From NCBI GenBank assembly GCA_037574385.1, contig GCA_037574385.1_4529.1: DNA of 64,000 nucleotides. One strand, written 5' to 3'. Shown here in pieces: positions 2,836 through 64,000 of the stretch. Source of the stretch: a phage. The number at the start of each line of letters is the position of its first letter. Within the stretch, counting starts at the first letter, position 1. The position numbers and the translations under genes were made by a program. The notes under the pieces were generated by a model. It was not told the origin of the DNA, did no database searches, and worked only from the letters and a program-made list of their open reading frames with translations.

Positions 2836-5049
2836 TTATTTGGCCGCTTCCACGGCCTTCATGAATTTAACGATTTGAGCGACTTGTTCTTTAGAAAGAG
2901 TACCACGTCGTCCCATGTATTCTGACACAATATGATAATTGGTTTCGAATTCAATAACCATTTTATCATCATTATCGTAAGCATTATCTTTAAGCTTATC
3001 GAAAATTTTAGCACACAATTCTAACTTTTTATTCAGTTCTCTGTTAGTAGCACCTGAGAATCGATTCCATCCCCAACGATTATTTACCGTTGAGAGTTTT
3101 GCAAAATCTTTACTGATTTCTTTGTTTTTAGAGCTAAAATACTTACTAAGGAAGTTAAGCTCTTCGTTACGAGTAATATGATTCAAATAAGGCTGTGCTC
3201 TACGACTTGGTGATACATACTCATCATAATCCACTTTATCAATTAGCGTAATATAGTCATTAATTGATTTTTCGAACAAGCATTCTACTTCGCCAAGTTT
3301 ACGAACTTTCTTAGCAATCTGTGGACGAACTACAGTGAACTCTTTAATACCTGACAAATCAGCAATACGGGTCAAGAAATTGGAGTCATAGTTCAACCAA
3401 CCTTTATCTGCGTCAAGACATTCAGCATTAGAACGATTACGAACTATAGCATAACCTTGGATTTCATCTGCTTCACTTGCTGGAATAAAGAGGTCTTCTG
3501 ATACCCAAACATCGTTTTCATTCTTAAAGAATCGATGAGCACTTGGCGATTTAGGACGAGGCTCATTAGTCCGTTTCCTGACTTCAATCCATGGCTTAAC
3601 GATTTGTAAAAGCTCTGAAGTCTTGTACATGTTAATGTTGTCGCCGTCAAAGATAACTTTAAGGCGTTCCAGAAGTTTCATTGCATCTTCGTCTGTAGGG
3701 TCAACGAATAGTACGCTTTTACCAAAACCGCGTGGAACTTTACCGGTTAATTTAACCTCGTCTTTAGACATTTCAATTGAATTAAGAGCTCGCATTAATG
3801 GAACGCGTCCCTTAACGTCGTCAATAACAATTTCAACGTTTTTAATGTTAATGCCAATCAGGCTGTTAATTGAAATAGTTGATGATGAGCTACCACTTTC
3901 ACGAATACGACGAAGACGAGGGGATTCAACGATATCGTATACGACGCCAAGATTACACCACTCAGGCCCCATTTTAAAACGTTTATACAACTCAGAATAA
4001 GTTAGTTGTTCTTTAGAGTATTTCAGTGATTCAATATTAGACCCAGCCTTTTCCATGTATTTACGAGCGGTATAGCCAAGAGAATCAATTTCACGGAACA
4101 CATGACGTGGGTATTTACAATCAATCCATTTCTTAGAATCTTCAGCGAACAATTTAGCATCGATTTCTGCAACGCGTTTATGGATATTTGCTACTGTACG
4201 TTTATCAAACGACAATGCTTCACGAGACGGAGCTACATCTAGTTCACCCATAGGGAATTTAATATAAGCTGTAGTGCATCGTGTCATCATCCATGTTTGT
4301 TCTTTAATAACACTTCCGATTGGATAAACAATACCACCATAAACAGCCATGATATTACCACGTTCACCCCGTGGAGCTTCCTTGGCCAAATATACATCGT
4401 CAAATTCTGGGAAGTATTTAATATCTTTAACACCACGAACTTCTGCTATATCACCTAAAGGACGCATAACATATGCAATTTCAGATGCGAACTTTTCAAA
4501 ATCTTCTGGGTTAACCGGTACGACTACTTCTACACCCGTACGGTCATCAGGACCCATCTTATCTACAAAGGTTGGCTTAATTTGAGGACCCGTGTCATCT
4601 TGGTAGATTACGTAACCACGAACTTCACCGTTGTGATAAGACGTAAGGTTAAACGTATCGGTATATGCTAGCGGAGCTTTAGAGCCGAGCCCGAATCCAC
4701 CAATGAAATCGTTGCTCGATGTTTTAGTTGAAGCAAAATATGAGTTATAGATTCCTGGCTCTTCGTCATTACCTCGAATAGTGAAATCACTCATACCAGG
4801 ACCAAAGTCTCGAACTACAAAACGTGGGTCTAAACGACCTGGAGCCTGAACAATAAACTTATCAGTGCAACCGTTAAGAATTTGTCCATCAATACAGTTT
4901 GTGATTAATTCACGTACACAAGCCAATTCTTTGTTTGTATAAAGGTCATTAGACAAAATCTTATAAACTTTGCTATTGCCTTGAATAGTGAATGCTGTAC
5001 TCTTACCGCCTGAACCAATAATCGTTTCTTTAGCCGTTTCAATAATCAT
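2836..5049 (-). CDS. rIIA: rIIA protein (GHKL-type ATPase domain)
   Basis: 737 aa directly upstream of rIIB as in T4; N-terminal GHKL ATPase-like motifs (ELITNCID, DFGPGM, GGFGLGSK). Confidence 0.9.
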   Translation of the reverse strand: MIIETAKETIIGSGGKSTAFTIQGNSKVYKILSNDLYTNKELACVRELITNCIDGQILNGCTDKFIVQAPGRLDPRFVVRDFGPGMSDFTIRGNDEEPGIYNSYFASTKTSSNDFIGGFGLGSKAPLAYTDTFNLTSYHNGEVRGYVIYQDDTGPQIKPTFVDKMGPDDRTGVEVVVPVNPEDFEKFASEIAYVMRPLGDIAEVRGVKDIKYFPEFDDVYLAKEAPRGERGNIMAVYGGIVYPIGSVIKEQTWMMTRCTTAYIKFPMGELDVAPSREALSFDKRTVANIHKRVAEIDAKLFAEDSKKWIDCKYPRHVFREIDSLGYTARKYMEKAGSNIESLKYSKEQLTYSELYKRFKMGPEWCNLGVVYDIVESPRLRRIRESGSSSSTISINSLIGINIKNVEIVIDDVKGRVPLMRALNSIEMSKDEVKLTGKVPRGFGKSVLFVDPTDEDAMKLLERLKVIFDGDNINMYKTSELLQIVKPWIEVRKRTNEPRPKSPSAHRFFKNENDVWVSEDLFIPASEADEIQGYAIVRNRSNAECLDADKGWLNYDSNFLTRIADLSGIKEFTVVRPQIAKKVRKLGEVECLFEKSINDYITLIDKVDYDEYVSPSRRAQPYLNHITRNEELNFLSKYFSSKNKEISKDFAKLSTVNNRWGWNRFSGATNRELNKKLELCAKIFDKLKDNAYDNDDKMVIEFETNYHIVSEYMGRRGTLSKEQVAQIVKFMKAVEAAK

Positions 5050-14116: not shown

Positions 14117-14863
14117 TTAACCTTTAACCAATTGGAATAATGATGCGCTAAGTGGTAAGCCACGTTTCAATTTTAATTTACCAATGAAACCAATCTTTTC
14201 AAAACGTTGCAAACCTTGGATAACTTTATCATATGTATCGAAAAGCGATTCAGCGTCAGTTAATTTAGTTTTAGTTTTCCAGTCAGAGCCTTTAAGAAGA
14301 ACGTTGAGTTTAGTAAGTTCATGGCCTTCTGCTTGGTGTGAACCATTAATGCGTGCTTTCAAAGCAACAATTCTAAGTTTAGATTCGTTAGATAAAGGTT
14401 GATTTTTCATCATGTTCGCCATATGCTTAACACGATTTTCACGTTTTGCTCGGATTTTTAAAATAGTACCATAAACCTTTTTAATTTGGGCCCATTTCTT
14501 CTCGTCGAGATTAAGTTTCTCTACTTTACGGACAGAAGGATTAGCGATACGTCTTGCAATGGCATCACGTTTCTCAATAAGTTCTTCTAATGTTAAATCA
14601 GAACGAGCCGTGTTATATTTTTTCTTAACTGGGATAACATTACCTTTAATGTAGCCGATATCGTTATCAAAACGTTCTAAGGATAATTTCTCACCTTCAA
14701 CAGAGTTATTGAAAGATTCACCTGAGTAAGCGCAGACCTTTTGATCAAGAATGTTTTTAAGGTAATTAAAGTCTAAGTTAAAATCCTTAGAGCGTCTCTT
14801 CGCAGAAGCTCTGGTGTGGTCAAGACGACGATTGATTTTGTTAATTTTATTATTTGATAACAT
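14117..14863 (-). CDS. hypothetical basic protein (248 aa; Srd position)
   Basis: ORF with AGAGGAAA SD and early promoter 14913-14940; Lys/Arg-rich; assignment by synteny only. Confidence 0.5.
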   Translation of the reverse strand: MLSNNKINKINRRLDHTRASAKRRSKDFNLDFNYLKNILDQKVCAYSGESFNNSVEGEKLSLERFDNDIGYIKGNVIPVKKKYNTARSDLTLEELIEKRDAIARRIANPSVRKVEKLNLDEKKWAQIKKVYGTILKIRAKRENRVKHMANMMKNQPLSNESKLRIVALKARINGSHQAEGHELTKLNVLLKGSDWKTKTKLTDAESLFDTYDKVIQGLQRFEKIGFIGKLKLKRGLPLSASLFQLVKG

Positions 14864-15016: not shown

Positions 15017-15625
15017 TCAGTAACTGACAATAGTCAGATTCCAGATTGTATAATTTCCATCTTGAATAATAGAATCTACACGCAGTGTAGTCCCTATAGG
15101 GAGCATAAATTCACATTCGTCAGATATAAGTCTAGCATTAGACCGTCTTGTCGCTTCAGGGAAAGCTCCATTGAACTCACAAGACGGCGCAGCCAGAATC
15201 ATATTAAGCATATGTTCACGGAAGTTGAAAGCAAATGGTGCATCTTTGATGCAGAACATATTAAATGTTCCATAAAAATTATATGAAGCAAAGTTACGTG
15301 CTACACCGAACACCGGGCTGAAGCTCATTACTCTGTCAAATTTAATAATACTACCAACGCCTTTATCATCAAGTGTGGCCATAGTTTTCTTAGAGATTCC
15401 ACGATACATTGTCTCAGGAACAGAAGACGACCAATTTCTACGAACAATTGCACTTAAATCTTGTTGGATGCTATCAGGCTTGTTTTCCATACACTGCCAC
15501 AGTATACTTTGTTCAATGTCGCTGAATTGACTATCAATTTCGTACTGCAATACATCTTGATATTCGGGGTTTTGAGCACGACGAACCATTTCTTCAATTT
15601 CACACTCGTTATACGGCATAAACAT
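15017..15625 (-). CDS. ADP-ribosyltransferase (ModA/ModB-like)
   Basis: 202 aa; ART triad candidates YRG, SFS and ECE; size and location as T4 modA/modB. Confidence 0.55.
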   Translation of the reverse strand: MFMPYNECEIEEMVRRAQNPEYQDVLQYEIDSQFSDIEQSILWQCMENKPDSIQQDLSAIVRRNWSSSVPETMYRGISKKTMATLDDKGVGSIIKFDRVMSFSPVFGVARNFASYNFYGTFNMFCIKDAPFAFNFREHMLNMILAAPSCEFNGAFPEATRRSNARLISDECEFMLPIGTTLRVDSIIQDGNYTIWNLTIVSY

Positions 15626-16037: not shown

Positions 16038-16225
16038 TTCCAAGGACTCCACGGTGGTGGGTCGTCATAATAAGAGGCAAGGTCTTTCAGGGCTTCAACA
16101 GGTAAACTAAAGCCATGTCGTTGTATAATACTATCTAGTTCATCAACAAGTTCACTACGATGCACTTTAGGAGCCTCAACTTCAGGCTCATCAAACATAC
16201 TCATCAAGTCCATATTATTCACCAA
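16034..16225 (-). CDS. hypothetical protein (63 aa)
   Basis: ORF in tight operon context. Confidence 0.45.
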   Translation of the reverse strand: MVNNMDLMSMFDEPEVEAPKVHRSELVDELDSIIQRHGFSLPVEALKDLASYYDDPPPWSPWK

Positions 16226-16679
16226 GATAAAAACTAGCCGGTTCAGAGAATGTTTCTAGTGCTACACCTTTTGTCTTAAAAAATTTCCAAATAGCTCGTT
16301 GCAAATGGGTTAAATCTGCTAATGATGTAATAAAGTATTTTTTGGCAAAATACTTATGGTCTCGCTTTTCAAACAGGTCTAAACGCTTTTCAGGATTCAC
16401 ATAAACGGCATTTTCTGTAGATTCATACCCTAAATCCTTTATGCCTTCTTCAAGACTAAACGGAGAATTTTTAGAATGAGTAATAGCTCCAACTCGCTCT
16501 ACACGAATTTTGTAACCTTTAGGAATCTGCAATTTGCAGAATTCTTCTACGATATATTGCGGATTATTTAGACTTTTGTTAATGAGAATAGCTATTTCTA
16601 GCGGAGTCTTATCTTCTACTGGTATATGTTTAAACGACTTGGCTTCAAGCAAATACATTTTAAATAGCATAGCATCCAT
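16215..16679 (-). CDS. hypothetical protein (154 aa)
   Basis: ORF; start overlaps the upstream stop. Confidence 0.5.
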   Translation of the reverse strand: MDAMLFKMYLLEAKSFKHIPVEDKTPLEIAILINKSLNNPQYIVEEFCKLQIPKGYKIRVERVGAITHSKNSPFSLEEGIKDLGYESTENAVYVNPEKRLDLFEKRDHKYFAKKYFITSLADLTHLQRAIWKFFKTKGVALETFSEPASFYLGE

Positions 16680-20513: not shown

Positions 20514-21164
20514 TTAACCTCGATTCATAAATGCATTAAATATTTGGTCATCAACAGAAATTTCTAATTCGACTTCAATTGCTTCAGCCTTTTCTTCAGG
20601 TGGTAATTCGTATCCACACACTACAATTTTTTCATCGATATCAAAATATACAGAAGCAATATGATTAATGTTATTTTCAGTTAAGTCTAAATCAACATCA
20701 ACATCTTTTTGACCTACACTTAAAGGATAACTAATACGGGTTATTTTATTATCTTTAACAAAGAGTCCACCAACATACTCTGTACTACGTTTGAAGTTTA
20801 CACGTTTCCGAATTGAAAGATATGATGCATCTTTACCGTGAGCTCGGCTCATAGGACATAATGAATAACTAGAATAAGAGATATCAAATCCTACGCCTTC
20901 AACATGTGCCAGAGTATCATGAGTAAACCAATTATAGTCGTATGCCAAATCCATTAAATTATAATATGTGAACGGAACTGGATTAACGTCATACGTTGTA
21001 CCTTTAAAATCTGCCCAGGCAACGATTTCGTTATCTTTAACAATTACAAAAATTACACCAATATGGTATCCGTTATTATTTTCATTCGGCGTTATATTAT
21101 AACATTGTGCATTAGGAAATTTACCATATTTAAATGGCGCGTTTTTGTGCATATAATAAATCAT
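20514..21164 (-). CDS. hypothetical protein (216 aa)
   Basis: Track ORF (GTG) trimmed to ATG with AGGTGA SD directly after the upstream stop. Confidence 0.5.
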   Translation of the reverse strand: MIYYMHKNAPFKYGKFPNAQCYNITPNENNNGYHIGVIFVIVKDNEIVAWADFKGTTYDVNPVPFTYYNLMDLAYDYNWFTHDTLAHVEGVGFDISYSSYSLCPMSRAHGKDASYLSIRKRVNFKRSTEYVGGLFVKDNKITRISYPLSVGQKDVDVDLDLTENNINHIASVYFDIDEKIVVCGYELPPEEKAEAIEVELEISVDDQIFNAFMNRG

Positions 21165-59918: not shown

Positions 59919-60221
59919 TTAGATAGATGTAGGCTCTAATTTTATTTTCATGAACTCGGCAAATTGTCTGGCAGTTTTTATGCCTTGTTCCTGGCATTCA
60001 AATGCATCATCACAGGGGCTATTTTTGTAATGCTTTGCCATATACTTATAAAATTTTTCAGAATTCTCAACATTTTGAATTTCGAACAAAGTATATACGT
60101 TTTTAATCCCTGATTCCATAAAGTTATCAAAGTACGGGTCAACATATGCAGTACCAACAATAGGAGTCGTTGCTGCAAAAAACCCCAGCATCGCCACAAT
60201 GGCTATCGCTCTTAAGGCCAT
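59919..60221 (-). CDS. secreted/periplasmic protein (100 aa)
   Basis: N-terminal signal peptide MALRAIAIVAMLGFFAATTPIVGTA; followed by terminator 59886-59916. Confidence 0.5.
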   Translation of the reverse strand: MALRAIAIVAMLGFFAATTPIVGTAYVDPYFDNFMESGIKNVYTLFEIQNVENSEKFYKYMAKHYKNSPCDDAFECQEQGIKTARQFAEFMKIKLEPTSI

Positions 60222-60233
60222 ATAGGCCTCCTG

Positions 60234-60446
60234 TTAATTTTGGCCAGTATTTATTTTTCGCCTTTGAACGGCCTTAACATCTGCGAGGTATTTTTCCAGC
60301 TTGCGCTTGCGTGTATAATCAGCTTTAGAACCAGTTTGACGGATATCCTCGTTTAAATGAGAAATAGAATGTCCTAATTCTCTTCGGATTTCATCCAATT
60401 GGGTTACAGTAAGATTACGAAGTTGTCTTTCGTTTAATTGCTGCAT
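60234..60446 (-). CDS. hypothetical protein (70 aa), probably late-expressed
   Basis: AAGAGGT SD; TATAAATA late-promoter consensus at 60473-60480. Confidence 0.5.
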
Positions 60447-60472
60447 ATATACCTCTTGGTTAGATATTAGTA

Positions 60473-60480
60473 TTTATAAC
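60473..60480 (-). promoter_or_regulatory. late promoter (TATAAATA)
   Basis: Exact TATAAATA on minus strand about 27 nt upstream of ATG at 60446, overlapping the tk 3' end. Confidence 0.5.
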
Positions 60481-61055
60481 AACCCTGTCAAATCATTCCA
60501 ATGCTTCCGGCATAATGACACATATCTATCGGTATCACCAATTTCAATTTGTCCACCGTCTGTAATTGGAAGTCCATCTTCCGTGACTCTAGCTACCATA
60601 GTGGCCTTTTTACCACAATGACAGACACCTTTAAGTTCAACAAGCTTGTCGGCAATAGCCATTAATGCTTGAGAACCTTCAAATAGATTACCTTTAAAAT
60701 CTGTTCGTAGTCCATATGCCATTACTGGCACATTGTATACGTCAACAATACGACTAAGTTGATACACCTTTTCAGTAGTTAAGAACTGAGCTTCGTCAAC
60801 AAATACACAGTGAATATCCTTTTGTGCTGCAGCCCATTTATAGAATTCAAAGATATCCATGTCTTTTGTAATTATATTGGCATCCTGACGAATACCAATA
60901 CGAGAGACTATTTCACCTTTTGAATCACGAGTATCAATAGCCGGTTTAAGAACTAATACACTCATGCCACGTTCTTTATAGTTATGTGCGGCAGTAAGTA
61001 ATGAAGCAGACTTACCAGCATTCATGGCGGCATAGGTAAAAATTAAACTAGCCAT
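60474..61055 (-). CDS. tk: thymidine kinase
   Basis: 193 aa; P-loop YAAMNAGKS, VDEAQF and C-terminal CHCGKKA zinc motif; matches recalled T4 Tk. Confidence 0.9.
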   Translation of the reverse strand: MASLIFTYAAMNAGKSASLLTAAHNYKERGMSVLVLKPAIDTRDSKGEIVSRIGIRQDANIITKDMDIFEFYKWAAAQKDIHCVFVDEAQFLTTEKVYQLSRIVDVYNVPVMAYGLRTDFKGNLFEGSQALMAIADKLVELKGVCHCGKKATMVARVTEDGLPITDGGQIEIGDTDRYVSLCRKHWNDLTGLL

Positions 61056-61063
61056 AAGAGTCC

Positions 61064-61249
61064 TTATTCGGTAATTCGTTCTAGATAATCATCTAATGCC
61101 CTTTGGGCATCTTCCAGTTCTTGTGTTGCGAGCTGTTTTGCCAGTTTAGACGAGAAATACGATGAATGTTCCCATTCATAAGCTTGTTCAGCCAAACGTA
61201 TTTCATTAGACAAATAAATTATCTCTTCTTTCTGTTGACGAGTAATCAT
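61064..61249 (-). CDS. hypothetical protein (61 aa)
   Basis: ATGA-coupled. Confidence 0.45.
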   Translation of the reverse strand: MITRQQKEEIIYLSNEIRLAEQAYEWEHSSYFSSKLAKQLATQELEDAQRALDDYLERITE

Positions 61250-61428
61250 AATGAGTTCACATAATTAATGAGTTCTTGTTCTTTCCTGTCAAATGATTCC
61301 AACAATGCTTGATATTCTTCATCTGTTAAAGGAGCATATTCATCGTACGCATTGGTGGCTGCTTGCTCATCCAATAGGTCATGGATAAGTTCGAACAGTT
61401 TAGCTTTCTCTTCTTTAGTCAATTTCAT
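61246..61428 (-). CDS. hypothetical acidic protein (60 aa)
   Basis: ATGA-coupled. Confidence 0.45.
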   Translation of the reverse strand: MKLTKEEKAKLFELIHDLLDEQAATNAYDEYAPLTDEEYQALLESFDRKEQELINYVNSL

Positions 61429-61919
61429 TTAGGTTCCCAATCAACAATCACAATTTCTAGTTTAGTGGAATACGTATCTAAAATCTCTTCGATGACATCC
61501 CAGTTTCCACCACCTATACCTGCACCAATTCTTGGCATATAAATTACAGGCTTTGTTATCTTATTCTTTCCGAATTCATTTAATTCTATTATACAATTCA
61601 TTAAAGCAGAGTACTCAAAATTAGGTCCCGGCTCAAACTGTGTATAAAGATTAAAGCAATAAGCTTTATGGGTCTTAAAATATTTTTCATAAACTGAATA
61701 AGTCCCGAGTTTAGACTCGTCTCCGAATTCGGTTTGAAGTTTATCAGCTTCCAGAATTTTTGGATAAGCCTTTGCTAATTGTCCTGCTACACCAGCGCCC
61801 ATTGTATGAAAACAATTGCACCCATGAGCAATATTATTACCTTTAGAAAACAGGGCGACAATATCGCCCTTGATATAGTTTTTAATCACTTGCTGCAAGT
61901 CCTCTAGTATAAGAGTCAA
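61425..61919 (-). CDS. macro-domain protein (putative ADP-ribose binding/hydrolase)
   Basis: 164 aa; macro-domain glycine-rich motifs HTMGAGVAG and RIGAGIGGGNW. Confidence 0.6.
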   Translation of the reverse strand: MTLILEDLQQVIKNYIKGDIVALFSKGNNIAHGCNCFHTMGAGVAGQLAKAYPKILEADKLQTEFGDESKLGTYSVYEKYFKTHKAYCFNLYTQFEPGPNFEYSALMNCIIELNEFGKNKITKPVIYMPRIGAGIGGGNWDVIEEILDTYSTKLEIVIVDWEPK

Positions 61920-62229
61920 CTAGACGGTCCACCATAGAATTGCATGCTGCCTTATCTTTAGGTTCCGCCACCGAGCATTCTAATATTTGCCATTTTTTAT
62001 GATATCGTTTAATTAAGGTAGACGCCTTGAACCTACTAGACGCCCCATCTTTTTCTCCGTCTTTATATGCGTATAACAATTTTTGTGAAAAATCTACTTT
62101 ACACTCTTGACTTTTACCACAATAATCAGACGCCGTTCTGTTTGTATACTCCGTTACATCAGTATATGTAGTATTAGCAAGAGCGTTAAATGAAACCAAG
62201 CCAACTATTAAAGCCAACATTTTGGTCAT
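61882..62229 (-). CDS. secreted protein (115 aa)
   Basis: Signal peptide MTKMLALIVGLVSFNALA; ATGA-coupled to upstream gene. Confidence 0.45.
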   Translation of the reverse strand: MTKMLALIVGLVSFNALANTTYTDVTEYTNRTASDYCGKSQECKVDFSQKLLYAYKDGEKDGASSRFKASTLIKRYHKKWQILECSVAEPKDKAACNSMVDRLVDSYTRGLAASD

Positions 62230-62768
62230 TCTTTTACTTCCAGTAGTTTATTTGATTTAAGGTAATTAGCCTTTTCTAGGACTTCAGAAGCATATTTACT
62301 TCCAGCACTTGTCTTCCATCCCGCATTATATGAGGATATAGCTTTTCTTATATCCCCGTTATGTATATTTAACCAATAAGAAAATTCGATATAAGCCCAT
62401 CTGGCTGAATTAGACCGCTTAGATAGCATTTTCTTAATTTGGGCATCAGTCATATTATAACCAAGCTGGTTAATTCTTGCCCTCATTGTTGGTAGATAGT
62501 TTTGGAACATTCCATACGCATGGTGACCTTTCTTATCTTTAAGATTAACACCGGCAGATGATTCCTGCCATAGTATTGCGGCCATTATGTATCCAAGTCC
62601 TTTCTTATGCATATTTTCATGCGTTTTAAATTTTCCGTCCTTAGAAAACTGTTCCCCAAACTGATAAGCATAATTCAAGTTATCGAGTTGGACATTACTA
62701 AAAGTATGCTCGGAGCTATGTGCTGATAACGAAAGAGCAAATAGACCAGCGAGTAGTGCTTTTCTCAT
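62226..62768 (-). CDS. secreted lytic transglycosylase-like protein (SLT domain)
   Basis: 180 aa; signal peptide; SLT motifs LWQESS, AYGMFQ, YNAG. Confidence 0.55.
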   Translation of the reverse strand: MRKALLAGLFALSLSAHSSEHTFSNVQLDNLNYAYQFGEQFSKDGKFKTHENMHKKGLGYIMAAILWQESSAGVNLKDKKGHHAYGMFQNYLPTMRARINQLGYNMTDAQIKKMLSKRSNSARWAYIEFSYWLNIHNGDIRKAISSYNAGWKTSAGSKYASEVLEKANYLKSNKLLEVKE

Positions 62769-62776
62769 GTTTACCT

Positions 62777-63235
62777 CTAGATTTTAATCACTGCTTTAGA
62801 AGCTTTTCCTGGTAGTCGTTTACTGTTAATAATAGCCATTCTACATTGAAGAGTCTTCATTTTGAATGCCGGATTTTCGCGACAAACTGTAAGGCCTAAC
62901 CAAAGATTTCCATCAGTTATTTCTAAACGGCCTGGGCGGTATTCGACACCTTCGACAAAATCTTCATCAACATCTGGACGTGCCGGCATTGATAAAAATT
63001 CTGCAACTTCTTTAACGTGATTTTTTACTTTACGAAATAATTCAAAAACATAATTCTCATCTATTTCTCTCTGGATGGCACGATCTAAGAGATGTTGAGA
63101 ATACTTGATATGAAAGCCCGGTAGTCCAAGAGACTTTGCAGCATCTTTTATACCGGCATTTATTTTGCGGAACTCCGTTTCAAAGATTCGACGGAGTTTA
63201 TTACGGCGGATAAAAACTTCCGAATTGATAGTCAT
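62777..63235 (-). CDS. regB: RegB endoribonuclease
   Basis: 152 aa; MTINSEVFIRRNKLRR..., FHIKYSQHLLDRAIQREIDE..., RLPGKASKAVIK match recalled T4 RegB; early promoter 63264-63292. Confidence 0.9.
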   Translation of the reverse strand: MTINSEVFIRRNKLRRIFETEFRKINAGIKDAAKSLGLPGFHIKYSQHLLDRAIQREIDENYVFELFRKVKNHVKEVAEFLSMPARPDVDEDFVEGVEYRPGRLEITDGNLWLGLTVCRENPAFKMKTLQCRMAIINSKRLPGKASKAVIKI

Positions 63236-63263
63236 TTTGATTTCTCCTCTAGTTTACAGGTCT

Positions 63264-63292
63264 ATAGTAACACAACTAGAGGAGAAGTAAAC
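63264..63292 (-). promoter_or_regulatory. early promoter for regB (GTTTAC-N17-TACTAT) with spacer complementary to SD
   Basis: Minus strand GTTTACTTCTCCTCTAGTTGTGTTACTAT; 13-bp perfect complement AACTAGAGGAGAA at the regB RBS. Confidence 0.55.
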
Positions 63293-63296
63293 TACT

Positions 63297-63512
63297 TTAT
63301 TGATAAAATGGAGTTAAAGCCCAAGATTCTTTAGATACCATATCGGCGAAATGCCTCATCTCTTCGATTTGGCGACGACGCTGGTCAGCATAGTCTTCTT
63401 CGCCTTCTTCTTTACAATCTTCAAGGTCTTCTTCAAGATACTTTAAGTATTCACTACAAATTTTGTTGACCTTTTCCTGGAAGTCCAATAACCCAGTAAT
63501 AGTAGAAGCCAT
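63297..63512 (-). CDS. hypothetical acidic protein (71 aa)
   Basis: ORF abutting the upstream stop. Confidence 0.45.
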   Translation of the reverse strand: MASTITGLLDFQEKVNKICSEYLKYLEEDLEDCKEEGEEDYADQRRRQIEEMRHFADMVSKESWALTPFYQ

Positions 63513-63778
63513 TAGTATTTTTCCTCAGGTCGAAATACTGCGCGGCATGCCCACATGCTGGCTTCTTTTAGATGTTGCTTAGCATACTTAAGAGCCTGCA
63601 CTGCATCCATATCTTCTTTGGTTTGTTGCTCTGTTTCATTTTCTTTCAAGATATATGCTTCTTCAATCAGAGCATCAAACAACAATCCAAGACGGACTTC
63701 AGCATCTTTAATAGCGTTCACTTTACCAATTTTATCATCGGTATGCGGCTTGTAGCCTTTGATGTCTTCAATCGACAT
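63512..63778 (-). CDS. hypothetical protein (88 aa)
   Basis: Track ORF trimmed to ATG with GAGGAAATT SD. Confidence 0.45.
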   Translation of the reverse strand: MSIEDIKGYKPHTDDKIGKVNAIKDAEVRLGLLFDALIEEAYILKENETEQQTKEDMDAVQALKYAKQHLKEASMWACRAVFRPEEKY

Positions 63779-63992
63779 AAGGAATTTCCTCATCGGTGGC
63801 AAGGTCATATTCGACCAATTGGATAGGCTCATTAATACCGTATCCACGTACAGTGATATCAGTTGTCGGATAGTTTCCAGTAATATCACCCATTCTAAAT
63901 GCTTCAATGAATGATTGCTCGCCTGAGCAACTAAACCAGGCGGCAAAACATTTTAAAACATCTTCAGACCCTTCTATAATCAATTTAGCCAT
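63768..63992 (-). CDS. hypothetical protein (74 aa)
   Basis: ORF ending 10 nt inside the downstream gene; start at window edge region. Confidence 0.4.
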   Translation of the reverse strand: MAKLIIEGSEDVLKCFAAWFSCSGEQSFIEAFRMGDITGNYPTTDITVRGYGINEPIQLVEYDLATDEEIPYVD

Positions 63993-64000
63993 TATAGACT

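What the first reader, a model, noticed from the sequence alone, without database searches (positions are those of the whole stretch)
61425..61919. Macro-domain protein near tk/regB in a genome that also encodes a Mod-like ADP-ribosyltransferase
The 164-aa protein has macro-domain glycine-rich loops (HTMGAGVAG, RIGAGIGGGNW), and a ModA/ModB-like ADP-ribosyltransferase is at 15017-15625. The phage may therefore both write and erase ADP-ribosylation, or use the macro domain to counter host ADP-ribosylating defence.
Basis: partly seen in the sequence, partly recalled or inferred. Interest (0 to 1): 0.55.

Follow-up and report, generated by a model that had tools for sequence, protein, structure and literature searches.

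The report
T4 Tk.4/AdfM-type phage macrodomain
This gene is the RB69-like phage's copy of the phage T4 macrodomain gene tk.4 (adfM), which a recent preprint showed T4 needs to escape the bacterial DarTG2 defence that ADP-ribosylates phage DNA, so the finding is real but already known.

Summary
The ORF is real and it is a macrodomain. It hits Pfam Macro above the curated cut-off. The AlphaFold model has pLDDT 96, and its nearest solved folds are TARG1, Poa1p, BT1257, DarG and SCO6735. The window is a Mosigvirus (RB69-like T-even phage). The gene sits in the conserved regB–vs.1–vs–tk.4–tk.x–tk block and is 84% identical to T4 Tk.4. The true start is most likely GTG at 61889 (154 aa), not TTG at 61919 (164 aa).

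A 2025 preprint (HIDEN-SEQ) found tk.4 to be the single T4 gene needed against DarTG2. A clean knockout sensitised T4, and the gene was renamed adfM. The "write and erase with Mod" reading is not.

One refinement: the family lacks the catalytic Lys of DarG and TARG1. It has an invariant Gln84, plus Asn25, His22 and Gly122/124. This matches the Gln-type enzyme SCO6735, which cleaves thymidine-linked ADP-ribose from DNA.

The Mod-like ADP-ribosyltransferase at 15017-15625 is confirmed, with an intact R-S-ExE motif.

Verdict: an ordinary, already characterised family; low interest.

The parts
61425..61889 (-). tk.4/adfM coding sequence: 154 aa, GTG start, single macrodomain with no extra domain
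   Evidence: ORF. 84% identical to T4 Tk.4 over 153 aa. Start supported by homologue N-termini, the annotation of phage moha and the Shine-Dalgarno site. AF2 pLDDT 96.
61890..61919 (-).
   Evidence: No homologue carries these 10 residues. The region lies inside vs, 61882-62229.
61900..61904 (-). GAGGA Shine-Dalgarno, 10 nt upstream of the GTG start
   Evidence: Read directly from the sequence.
61882..61889 (-). GTGATTAA overlap of the tk.4 start with the vs stop codon (translational coupling; T4 has an ATGA overlap at the same junction)
   Evidence: T4 coordinates.
61782..61829 (-). Loop 1, AHGCNCFHTMGAGVAG (residues 21-36). Contains His22 and Asn25 (equivalents of SCO6735 H24 and N27, and of PhiKZ AdfM N23) and the GxG ADP-ribose-binding motif.
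   Evidence: H22 is invariant and N25 at least 90% conserved in 59 homologues. Alignment with a Streptomyces SCO6735 orthologue, TARG1 and PhiKZ gp104. Mutagenesis data in PMC9411070 and PMC13309987.
61638..61652 (-). NLYTQ motif (residues 80-84). Gln84 occupies the position of TARG1 Lys84, DarG Lys80 and SCO6735 Gln85.
   Evidence: N80, Y82 and Q84 are invariant. The profile alignment places Q84 opposite TARG1 K84. MAFFT places it opposite Q85 of the SCO6735 orthologue. The Q85A mutant of SCO6735 is inactive.
61500..61535 (-). Phosphate-binding loop PRIGAGIGGGNW (residues 119-130). G122 and G124 correspond to SCO6735 G126 and G128. TARG1 Asp125 is replaced by Gly126.
   Evidence: P119, I121, G122 and G124 are invariant. 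HMMER alignment to 5e3b. Alignment A3.

Best explanation
The gene is the Mosigvirus orthologue of T4 tk.4 (adfM). It encodes a stand-alone, 154-residue macrodomain of the ALC1/TARG1-like class and acts as a counter-defence enzyme.

Proposed mechanism: when a host DarTG2 system releases DarT2, the toxin ADP-ribosylates thymidines in single-stranded phage DNA and blocks replication. The phage macrodomain binds the ADP-ribose through its two glycine-rich loops and hydrolyses the thymine–ribose bond, restoring the DNA. It works as an orphan antitoxin with no DarT-binding domain.

The chemistry is probably the lysine-independent one proposed for Streptomyces SCO6735. There, Gln85 (here Gln84) is held in place by Asn27 (here Asn25) and positions the distal ribose, and a water molecule starts the reaction.

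Shown: fold, orthology, synteny and residue conservation (here); the DarTG2 phenotype of T4 tk.4 (preprint); thymidine-ADP-ribose hydrolysis by the Gln-type SCO6735 and by the Lys-type PhiKZ AdfM (papers).

Inferred: that this allele has the same phenotype, and that T-even AdfM acts by hydrolysis.
For: - Orthology: 84% identity to T4 Tk.4 over the full length, in the same gene order regB–vs.1–vs–tk.4–tk.x–tk.
- Genetics: T4 tk.4 was the single significant hit under DarTG2, and its knockout is DarTG2-sensitive. T-even phages as a group resist DarTG2 even without adfA and adfN.
- Fold: pLDDT 96. The top solved neighbours are TARG1, Poa1p, BT1257, DarG and SCO6735. Profile hits to the same set have E-values from 1e-17 to 2e-11. 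The DarG models of NCBIfam and PADLOC are the only hits in those libraries.
- Active site: Q84, N80, Y82, H22, G122 and G124 are invariant, and N25 is at least 90% conserved, across 59 homologues down to 35% identity. These align with SCO6735 Q85, H24, N27, G126 and G128.
- Precedent: SCO6735 cleaves thymidine-linked ADP-ribose from DNA and protects against DarT. Its Q85A and N27S mutants lose activity and G128E loses most of it. PhiKZ AdfM removes DarT2 marks in vitro, and its N23A mutant (equivalent to N25 here) is impaired.
Against: - Nothing has been tested for this allele or for any Mosigvirus.
- The T4 evidence is a preprint and is genetic only. Its authors state that enzymatic removal 'seems likely'.
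- The catalytic lysine of DarG and TARG1 is absent.
- The DNA-positioning Lys34 of SCO6735 is Ala32 here.
- SCO6735 Q85A, DarG K80A and TARG1 K84A also inhibit DarT without catalysis, so hydrolysis is not the only possible route.
- The DarT2 target motif TNTC contains a cytosine. In T-even DNA that cytosine is glucosyl-hydroxymethylated, and the effect on the substrate is unknown (own knowledge).
Confidence: 0.8

Rival explanations
1. Eraser for the phage's own marks: the macrodomain reverses ADP-ribosylation (or RNAylation) written by the phage Mod/Alt enzymes, giving a write/erase circuit.
For: A ModA/ModB homologue with an intact R-S-ExE motif is encoded at 15017-15625. Both genes are likely expressed early, by analogy with T4 (own knowledge).
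Against: - Mod and Alt modify arginine. Macrodomains of this class are not known to cleave arginine-linked ADP-ribose; ARH/DraG-type enzymes do that (established knowledge).
- The macrodomain family occurs in 2801 phage records and Mod in 1078. Hundreds of Pseudomonas, Vibrio, Acinetobacter and Aeromonas phages have the macrodomain, and these names are not among the main Mod hits.
- tk.4 scored as conditionally essential under DarTG2, not as a general fitness gene.
Confidence: 0.04
2. Metabolic ADP-ribose-derivative hydrolase: an ADP-ribose-1''-phosphate phosphatase (the RefSeq name 'phosphatase', Poa1p-like) or an O-acetyl-ADP-ribose deacetylase. It would clean up by-products of RNA repair or of sirtuin/NADase activity.
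For: - Poa1p is among the best sequence and fold matches: E=1e-8 and TM 0.8.
- The His of the H-x-C-N motif is shared with Poa1p, and PDB entries of Poa1p H23A and S30A mutants exist.
- Some sources name relatives 'O-acetyl-ADP-ribose deacetylase'.
- Such side activities are common in macrodomains.
Against: - These names are transferred by homology, not tested.
- T4 RNA repair (Pnk/Rnl1) does not produce ADP-ribose-1''-phosphate (own knowledge).
- The T4 knockout has a specific DarTG2 phenotype.
- Poa1p has Ser, not the family-invariant Gln, at position 84.
Confidence: 0.08
3. Non-catalytic blocker: the protein protects by binding DarT2, or the ADP-ribosylated or target DNA, without hydrolysis.
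For: Catalytically dead SCO6735 Q85A, DarG K80A and TARG1 K84A all reduce DarT activity on DNA in vitro, with SCO6735 the strongest. The DarG/TARG1 lysine is missing here.
Against: - Every residue shown by mutagenesis to be needed for SCO6735 catalysis, except K34, is invariant or nearly so in the phage family.
- There is no DarT-binding domain: 154 aa matches only positions 4-148 of the 338-position DarG model.
- PhiKZ AdfM acts enzymatically.
Confidence: 0.07

Closest known systems
Phage T4 Tk.4 = AdfM (anti-DarT factor Macrodomain), NP_049723.1
   Same: 84% identical over 153 aa, nearly the same length (154 vs 155 aa), same position between vs and the tk.x genes, and start codon overlapping the vs stop. 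All family-invariant residues are shared.
   Different: GTG start instead of ATG. 25 substitutions, for example GIGGGNW here against GIGKGNW in T4. No experiment has been done on this allele. Flanking genes are less conserved than tk.4 itself: vs 67%, rI 53%.
Streptomyces coelicolor SCO6735 (PDB 5e3b) and Bacteroides BT1257 (2fg1/2afc): Gln-type ALC1-like macrodomains
   Same: Same fold. Same N-x-x-x-Q motif, with Gln at the TARG1-Lys84 position. Same H-x-x-N motif and the same G-x-G phosphate loop. SCO6735 hydrolyses thymidine-linked ADP-ribose on DNA and protects from DarT.
   Different: Only about 22-27% identity. The mobile loop after the Gln is shorter: QFEPGPN here against QRGIRTGSKG. 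SCO6735 Lys34 is Ala32 here. SCO6735 is a cellular, DNA-damage-induced gene rather than a phage gene.
DarG (DarG2) antitoxin macrodomain and PhiKZ gp104 'AdfM'
   Same: Same class of fold and the same biological target, DarT2-modified DNA. The conserved Asn (PhiKZ N23, N25 here) is shared. The NCBIfam and PADLOC DarG models are the only hits in their libraries.
   Different: DarG and PhiKZ AdfM carry the FPTK lysine (K80), which is Gln here. DarG has a C-terminal DarT-binding domain and sits next to darT. PhiKZ gp104 aligns with the window protein over only 23 residues (9 identities). The two phage proteins both called AdfM therefore appear to be separate lineages.
Human TARG1/OARD1 (C6orf130)
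   Same: Best Foldseek hit (E=4e-10) and profile E=1e-16. TARG1 also reverses DarT-type thymidine ADP-ribosylation (as compared in PMC9411070).
   Different: The catalytic dyad Lys84/Asp125 is replaced by Gln84/Gly126.
Yeast Poa1p (ADP-ribose-1''-phosphate phosphatase)
   Same: Fold TM 0.8, sequence E=1e-8, and a shared His-x-Cys-Asn-Cys stretch. It is the source of the 'phosphatase' and 'Poa1p_like' annotations of relatives.
   Different: Ser at the Gln84 position and a different phosphate loop (QINSGIAG). Its role is in tRNA-splicing by-product metabolism.

Membership tests
Macro domain superfamily (Pfam PF01661) | Profile match above the curated gathering score | tested here: met
   28.1 bits against a cut-off of 22; profile positions 2-117 of 118.
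Macro domain superfamily (Pfam PF01661) | Three-layer alpha/beta/alpha macro fold with two glycine-rich ADP-ribose-binding loops | tested here: met
   AF2 pLDDT 96 and pTM 0.91. Foldseek probability 1.00 to many macrodomains, several solved with ADP-ribose bound. MGAG and GAGIGGG loops are conserved.
ALC1/TARG1-like macrodomain class | Closest sequence and structure neighbours are TARG1, Poa1p, DarG and SCO6735 rather than MacroD or viral Mac1 types | tested here: met
   Ranks 1-19, and rank 25, of the Foldseek PDB list are these proteins; viral and MacroD types start at E of about 7e-6. The same order is seen in the profile search.
TARG1 (terminal ADP-ribose glycohydrolase) | Catalytic dyad Lys84/Asp125 | tested here: not met
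   Gln84 and Gly126 occupy the aligned positions.
DarG type II/IV antitoxin (NCBIfam NF048014, PADLOC DarG) | Full-length match including the C-terminal DarT-binding domain | tested here: not met
   32.1 bits against a cut-off of 250. Only profile positions 4-148 of 338 are matched, and the protein is 154 aa.
DarG type II/IV antitoxin (NCBIfam NF048014, PADLOC DarG) | Catalytic Lys80 in the FPTK motif | tested here: not met
   The family has an invariant LYTQ motif. PhiKZ gp104 and TARG1 have the Lys. The Lys80/Lys84/Gln85 equivalence is stated in PMC9411070.
DarG type II/IV antitoxin (NCBIfam NF048014, PADLOC DarG) | Encoded next to a darT toxin gene | tested here: not met
   The neighbours are vs and two DUF7438 (tk.1/tk.2-like) genes.
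SCO6735-type (Gln-type) DNA ADP-ribosylglycohydrolase | Gln at the Lys84/Lys80 position, held by the conserved Asn; the His and G-x-G loop residues shown by mutagenesis to matter | tested here: met
   Q84↔Q85, N25↔N27, H22↔H24 and G122/G124↔G126/G128 in alignment with a Streptomyces orthologue whose numbering reproduces the published residues. The 5e3b loop alignment agrees. These residues are invariant or nearly invariant in the phage family.
SCO6735-type (Gln-type) DNA ADP-ribosylglycohydrolase | DNA-positioning lysines Lys34 and Lys89 | tested here: not met
   Ala32 lies at the Lys34 position. The loop carrying Lys89 is shorter here.
SCO6735-type (Gln-type) DNA ADP-ribosylglycohydrolase | Hydrolysis of thymidine-linked ADP-ribose on ssDNA | not testable with these tools
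   Needs an enzyme assay.
T4 Tk.4/AdfM orthologous group | Full-length sequence orthology and conserved genomic position | tested here: met
   84% identity over 153 aa. The vs–tk.4–tk.x–tk order is shared with T4, PP01 and moha.
T4 Tk.4/AdfM orthologous group | Required for growth on DarTG2-expressing hosts | not testable with these tools
   Shown only for T4.
Poa1p-type ADP-ribose-1''-phosphate phosphatase | Catalytic residues of Poa1p (His23 and Ser30 are named in PDB mutant entries) | tested here: inconclusive
   The His aligns with H22. The Ser position is Thr29, if the chain numbering carries a 3-residue tag offset, which is an inference.

The most novel reading that the evidence does not exclude
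T-even AdfM would be a Gln-type macrodomain of the SCO6735/BT1257 kind, recruited independently of the Lys-type DarG-like AdfM of PhiKZ. In addition, tk.4 would be an allele-swapping hot spot. T4 and PP01 are 99-100% identical in the flanking proteins but only 58% identical in Tk.4, and the T4 allele is closer to this Mosigvirus allele (83%). The alleles would differ in which DarT variants, or which other ADP-ribosyl marks on DNA or RNA, they can reverse.
Probability: 0.25. Interest if true: 0.45.

Novelty: already known. Interest (0 to 1): 0.15.

Why it matters
It matters little as a discovery. The family has been annotated as a macrodomain for years, and its T4 member now has an assigned anti-DarTG2 role.

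It is useful as annotation:
- The 'phosphatase' label in RefSeq relatives should read adfM/anti-DarT2 macrodomain.
- The CDS start should be GTG 61889.
- This phage carries at least two anti-DarT factors in the window: the AdfA homologue at 20517-21164 and AdfM.

The mechanistic refinement gives a concrete and cheap mutagenesis test for how T-even AdfM works. The points to test are the Gln-type active site, the separate lineage from PhiKZ AdfM, and the allele mosaicism.

Tried and rejected
- 164-aa reading from TTG 61919: rejected in favour of GTG 61889.
- Membership in DarG proper: rejected. There is no Lys80, no C-terminal domain and no neighbouring darT.
- TARG1-type chemistry: rejected. 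The Lys84/Asp125 dyad is absent.
- Functional coupling to Mod: rejected on chemistry and on distribution.
- Promoter and terminator scan of 60000-64000: uninformative. It found 12 promoter-like sites against 14.6±3.7 expected. The one terminator-like hairpin lies inside the CDS.
- Segment search of the PDB to force an SCO6735 alignment: it aligned only the phosphate loop. I therefore fetched a Streptomyces orthologue by a degenerate DNA pattern and aligned that instead. MAFFT places the PhiKZ lysine one column off, so the DarG-Lys equivalence rests on the literature.
- The LeRoux 2022 DarTG paper could not be read. DarTG2 resistance of T-even phages was taken from PMC11257639.
- PADLOC gave no hit for the AdfA homologue, as expected for a library of defence proteins.

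Full report
**What is there.**
The minus strand of the window carries an ORF that ends at 61425. Both quoted glycine-rich strings are present.

The window is a Mosigvirus, that is, an RB69-like T-even phage. The 2.9-kb stretch around the ORF is 97-98% identical to phages phiEC1, ATK47, ESh27, moha and others. Several of those records already name the gene 'macro domain protein', 'Poa1p_like family protein', 'ADP-ribose binding module' or 'phosphatase'.

**Start codon.**
The 59-sequence alignment shows no homologue carrying the 10-residue extension; their N-termini lie at or within a few residues of the GTG, consensus MIxxxIKGD. T4 Tk.4 aligns from its first residue to residue 11 of the 164-aa reading. 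Phage moha is annotated with a 465-nt CDS.

In the window that position is GTG 61889. It is preceded by GAGGA with a 10-nt spacer and overlaps the stop codon of vs (GTGATTAA). The CDS is therefore most likely 61425-61889, 154 aa. The extra 30 nt are the 3' end of vs.

**Is it a macrodomain?**
Yes.
- Pfam Macro scores 28.1 bits against a cut-off of 22, over nearly the whole profile.
- PHROG 335 matches at E=8e-67.
- Solved structures found by sequence are BT1257, Poa1p, SCO6735, TARG1/OARD1 and DarG.
- An AlphaFold2 model built on the alignment has mean pLDDT 96.0 and pTM 0.91.
- The best Foldseek matches in the PDB are TARG1, Poa1p, BT1257, Thermus and Mycobacterium DarG macrodomains and SCO6735, all with probability 1.00. 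Viral Mac1 and MacroD types come lower.

It therefore belongs to the ALC1/TARG1-like class.

**Orthology.**
The gene lies in the block regB (62777-63235), vs.1 (62226-62768), vs (61882-62229), this gene, two DUF7438 genes, and tk (60474-61055). T4 and PP01 have the same order, and there the gene is tk.4. Identity to T4 Tk.4 is 84% over 153 residues.

**What is known about tk.4.**
A bioRxiv preprint of November 2025 (10.1101/2025.11.20.689424) screened a T4 transposon library on a DarTG2-expressing host. tk.4 was the single significant hit, and a clean knockout sensitised T4. The authors renamed the gene adfM and proposed, by analogy, enzymatic removal of ADP-ribose from DNA.

An earlier study had noted that all tested Tevenvirinae resist DarTG2 even without adfA and adfN, and so must carry another factor.

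Separately, a Cell Reports 2026 paper named PhiKZ gp104 'AdfM'. It showed removal of DarT2 marks from DNA in vitro and reduced activity of an N23A mutant.

Phage macrodomains are common. A 2022 survey reports them in 41% of myoviruses, and I find homologues of this protein in 2801 of 50,697 phage records.

**Active site.**
The TARG1 dyad is absent: Lys84 is replaced by Gln84 and Asp125 by Gly126. The DarG lysine is absent too, because the literature equates DarG Lys80 with TARG1 Lys84.

This does not make the protein inactive. Gln84, Asn80, Tyr82, His22, Cys26, Asp49, Gly122 and Gly124 are invariant, and Asn25 is at least 90% conserved, in 59 homologues down to 35% identity.

Streptomyces SCO6735 has exactly this arrangement. 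It cleaves thymidine-linked ADP-ribose from DNA and protects against DarT. Gln85 sits at the lysine position, and its Q85A and Q85E mutants are dead. N27S is nearly dead, and G128E is impaired.

To check the equivalence directly, I fetched a Streptomyces orthologue by a degenerate DNA pattern. Its numbering reproduces H24, V25, N27, K34, Q85, G87, G126 and G128. It aligns as Q85↔Q84, N27↔N25, H24↔H22 and G126/G128↔G122/G124. The phosphate loop of PDB 5e3b aligns in the same way. BT1257 has the same N-x-x-x-Q motif.

Two differences remain. SCO6735 Lys34 is Ala32 here, and the loop after the Gln is shorter.

PhiKZ gp104 has the DarG-type FPTK lysine and shares only a 23-residue local match with the window protein. 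The two proteins called 'AdfM' therefore appear to be separate recruitments within one fold class.

**The Mod-like gene.**
ORF 15017-15625(-) is a ModA/ModB homologue. It is 30-31% identical to T4 ModB (E=9e-29) and ModA (E=4e-17). Arg75, Ser101 and Glu170-x-Glu172 are conserved. It lies next to srd (14117-14863, 68% to T4) and an MRH-family gene. Only one Mod paralogue is in the window, whereas T4 has two.

A write/erase pairing with the macrodomain is unlikely. Mod enzymes modify arginine, a linkage that this macrodomain class is not known to cleave (established knowledge). The macrodomain is also present in many phage groups without a detectable Mod.

**Conclusion.**
The finding is a correct identification of an already known gene family, whose T4 member has a recently assigned anti-DarTG2 role.
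- Best explanation (confidence about 0.8): an orphan, Gln-type DNA ADP-ribosylglycohydrolase that reverses DarT2 marks.
- Rivals: a metabolic ADP-ribose-derivative hydrolase, a non-catalytic blocker, or an eraser of Mod marks. All are much less likely.
- Novelty: already known. Interest: low.

The modest additions from this work are the corrected start codon, the Gln-type active-site assignment and the allele mosaicism at tk.4.

Noticed in passing
window 20517-21164 (-): Homologue of T4 gp61.2 = AdfA, the anti-DarT1 factor (66% identity, E=9e-89). If the protein starts at MHKNAPF, as the RB69 cloning primer does, residue 164 is His. That is the state of the RB69 R164H escape allele that neutralises DarT1, and T4 also has His there. 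The window therefore holds two anti-DarT genes.
   Followed up: partly
window 61425-61889 versus L002 (T4) 4423-4890 and L004 (PP01) 2501-2980: tk.4 is a mosaic hot spot. T4 and PP01 proteins are 99-100% identical for rI, rI.1, tk, vs and vs.1 but only 58% identical for Tk.4. The window allele is 83% identical to T4 and 58% to PP01, while its flanking proteins are 53-82% identical to T4. This suggests cassette-like allele exchange.
   Followed up: partly
window 61852-61877 (-): A 26-nt stretch (TATATCAAGGGCGATATTGTCGCCCT, codons 5-13 of tk.4) is identical in the window, moha, T4 and PP01, although the alleles diverge afterwards. It contains an 8-bp imperfect (one G-T pair) G+C-rich hairpin followed by a T-rich run, which the scan flagged as terminator-like. 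It could be a recombination anchor or an RNA element, or it may simply reflect the conserved YIKGDIVAL peptide.
   Followed up: partly
window 61064-61249 (-) and 61246-61428 (-): Two tandem small paralogues of Pfam DUF7438 (tk.1/tk.2-like, 61 and 60 aa) lie between tk and tk.4. Many close Mosigvirus relatives have only one, which explains the 94% query coverage.
   Followed up: no
window 15017-15625 (-), 14117-14863 (-), 16215-16679 (-): There is a single ModA/ModB-like ADP-ribosyltransferase with an intact R-S-ExE motif but no Pfam hit. It is flanked by an Srd homologue (68% to T4) and a T4_MRH family protein. T4 has two adjacent mod genes at this place.
   Followed up: partly
window 61882-62229 (-): This is vs (valyl-tRNA synthetase modifier, 67% to T4), translationally coupled to tk.4. 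In the HIDEN-SEQ preprint the T4 vs gene was the most strongly depleted gene in minimal medium.
   Followed up: no
literature: The name AdfM is used for two barely alignable phage macrodomains: T4 Tk.4 (Gln-type) and PhiKZ gp104 (Lys-type, DarG-like). This name collision could mislead annotation transfer.
   Followed up: yes
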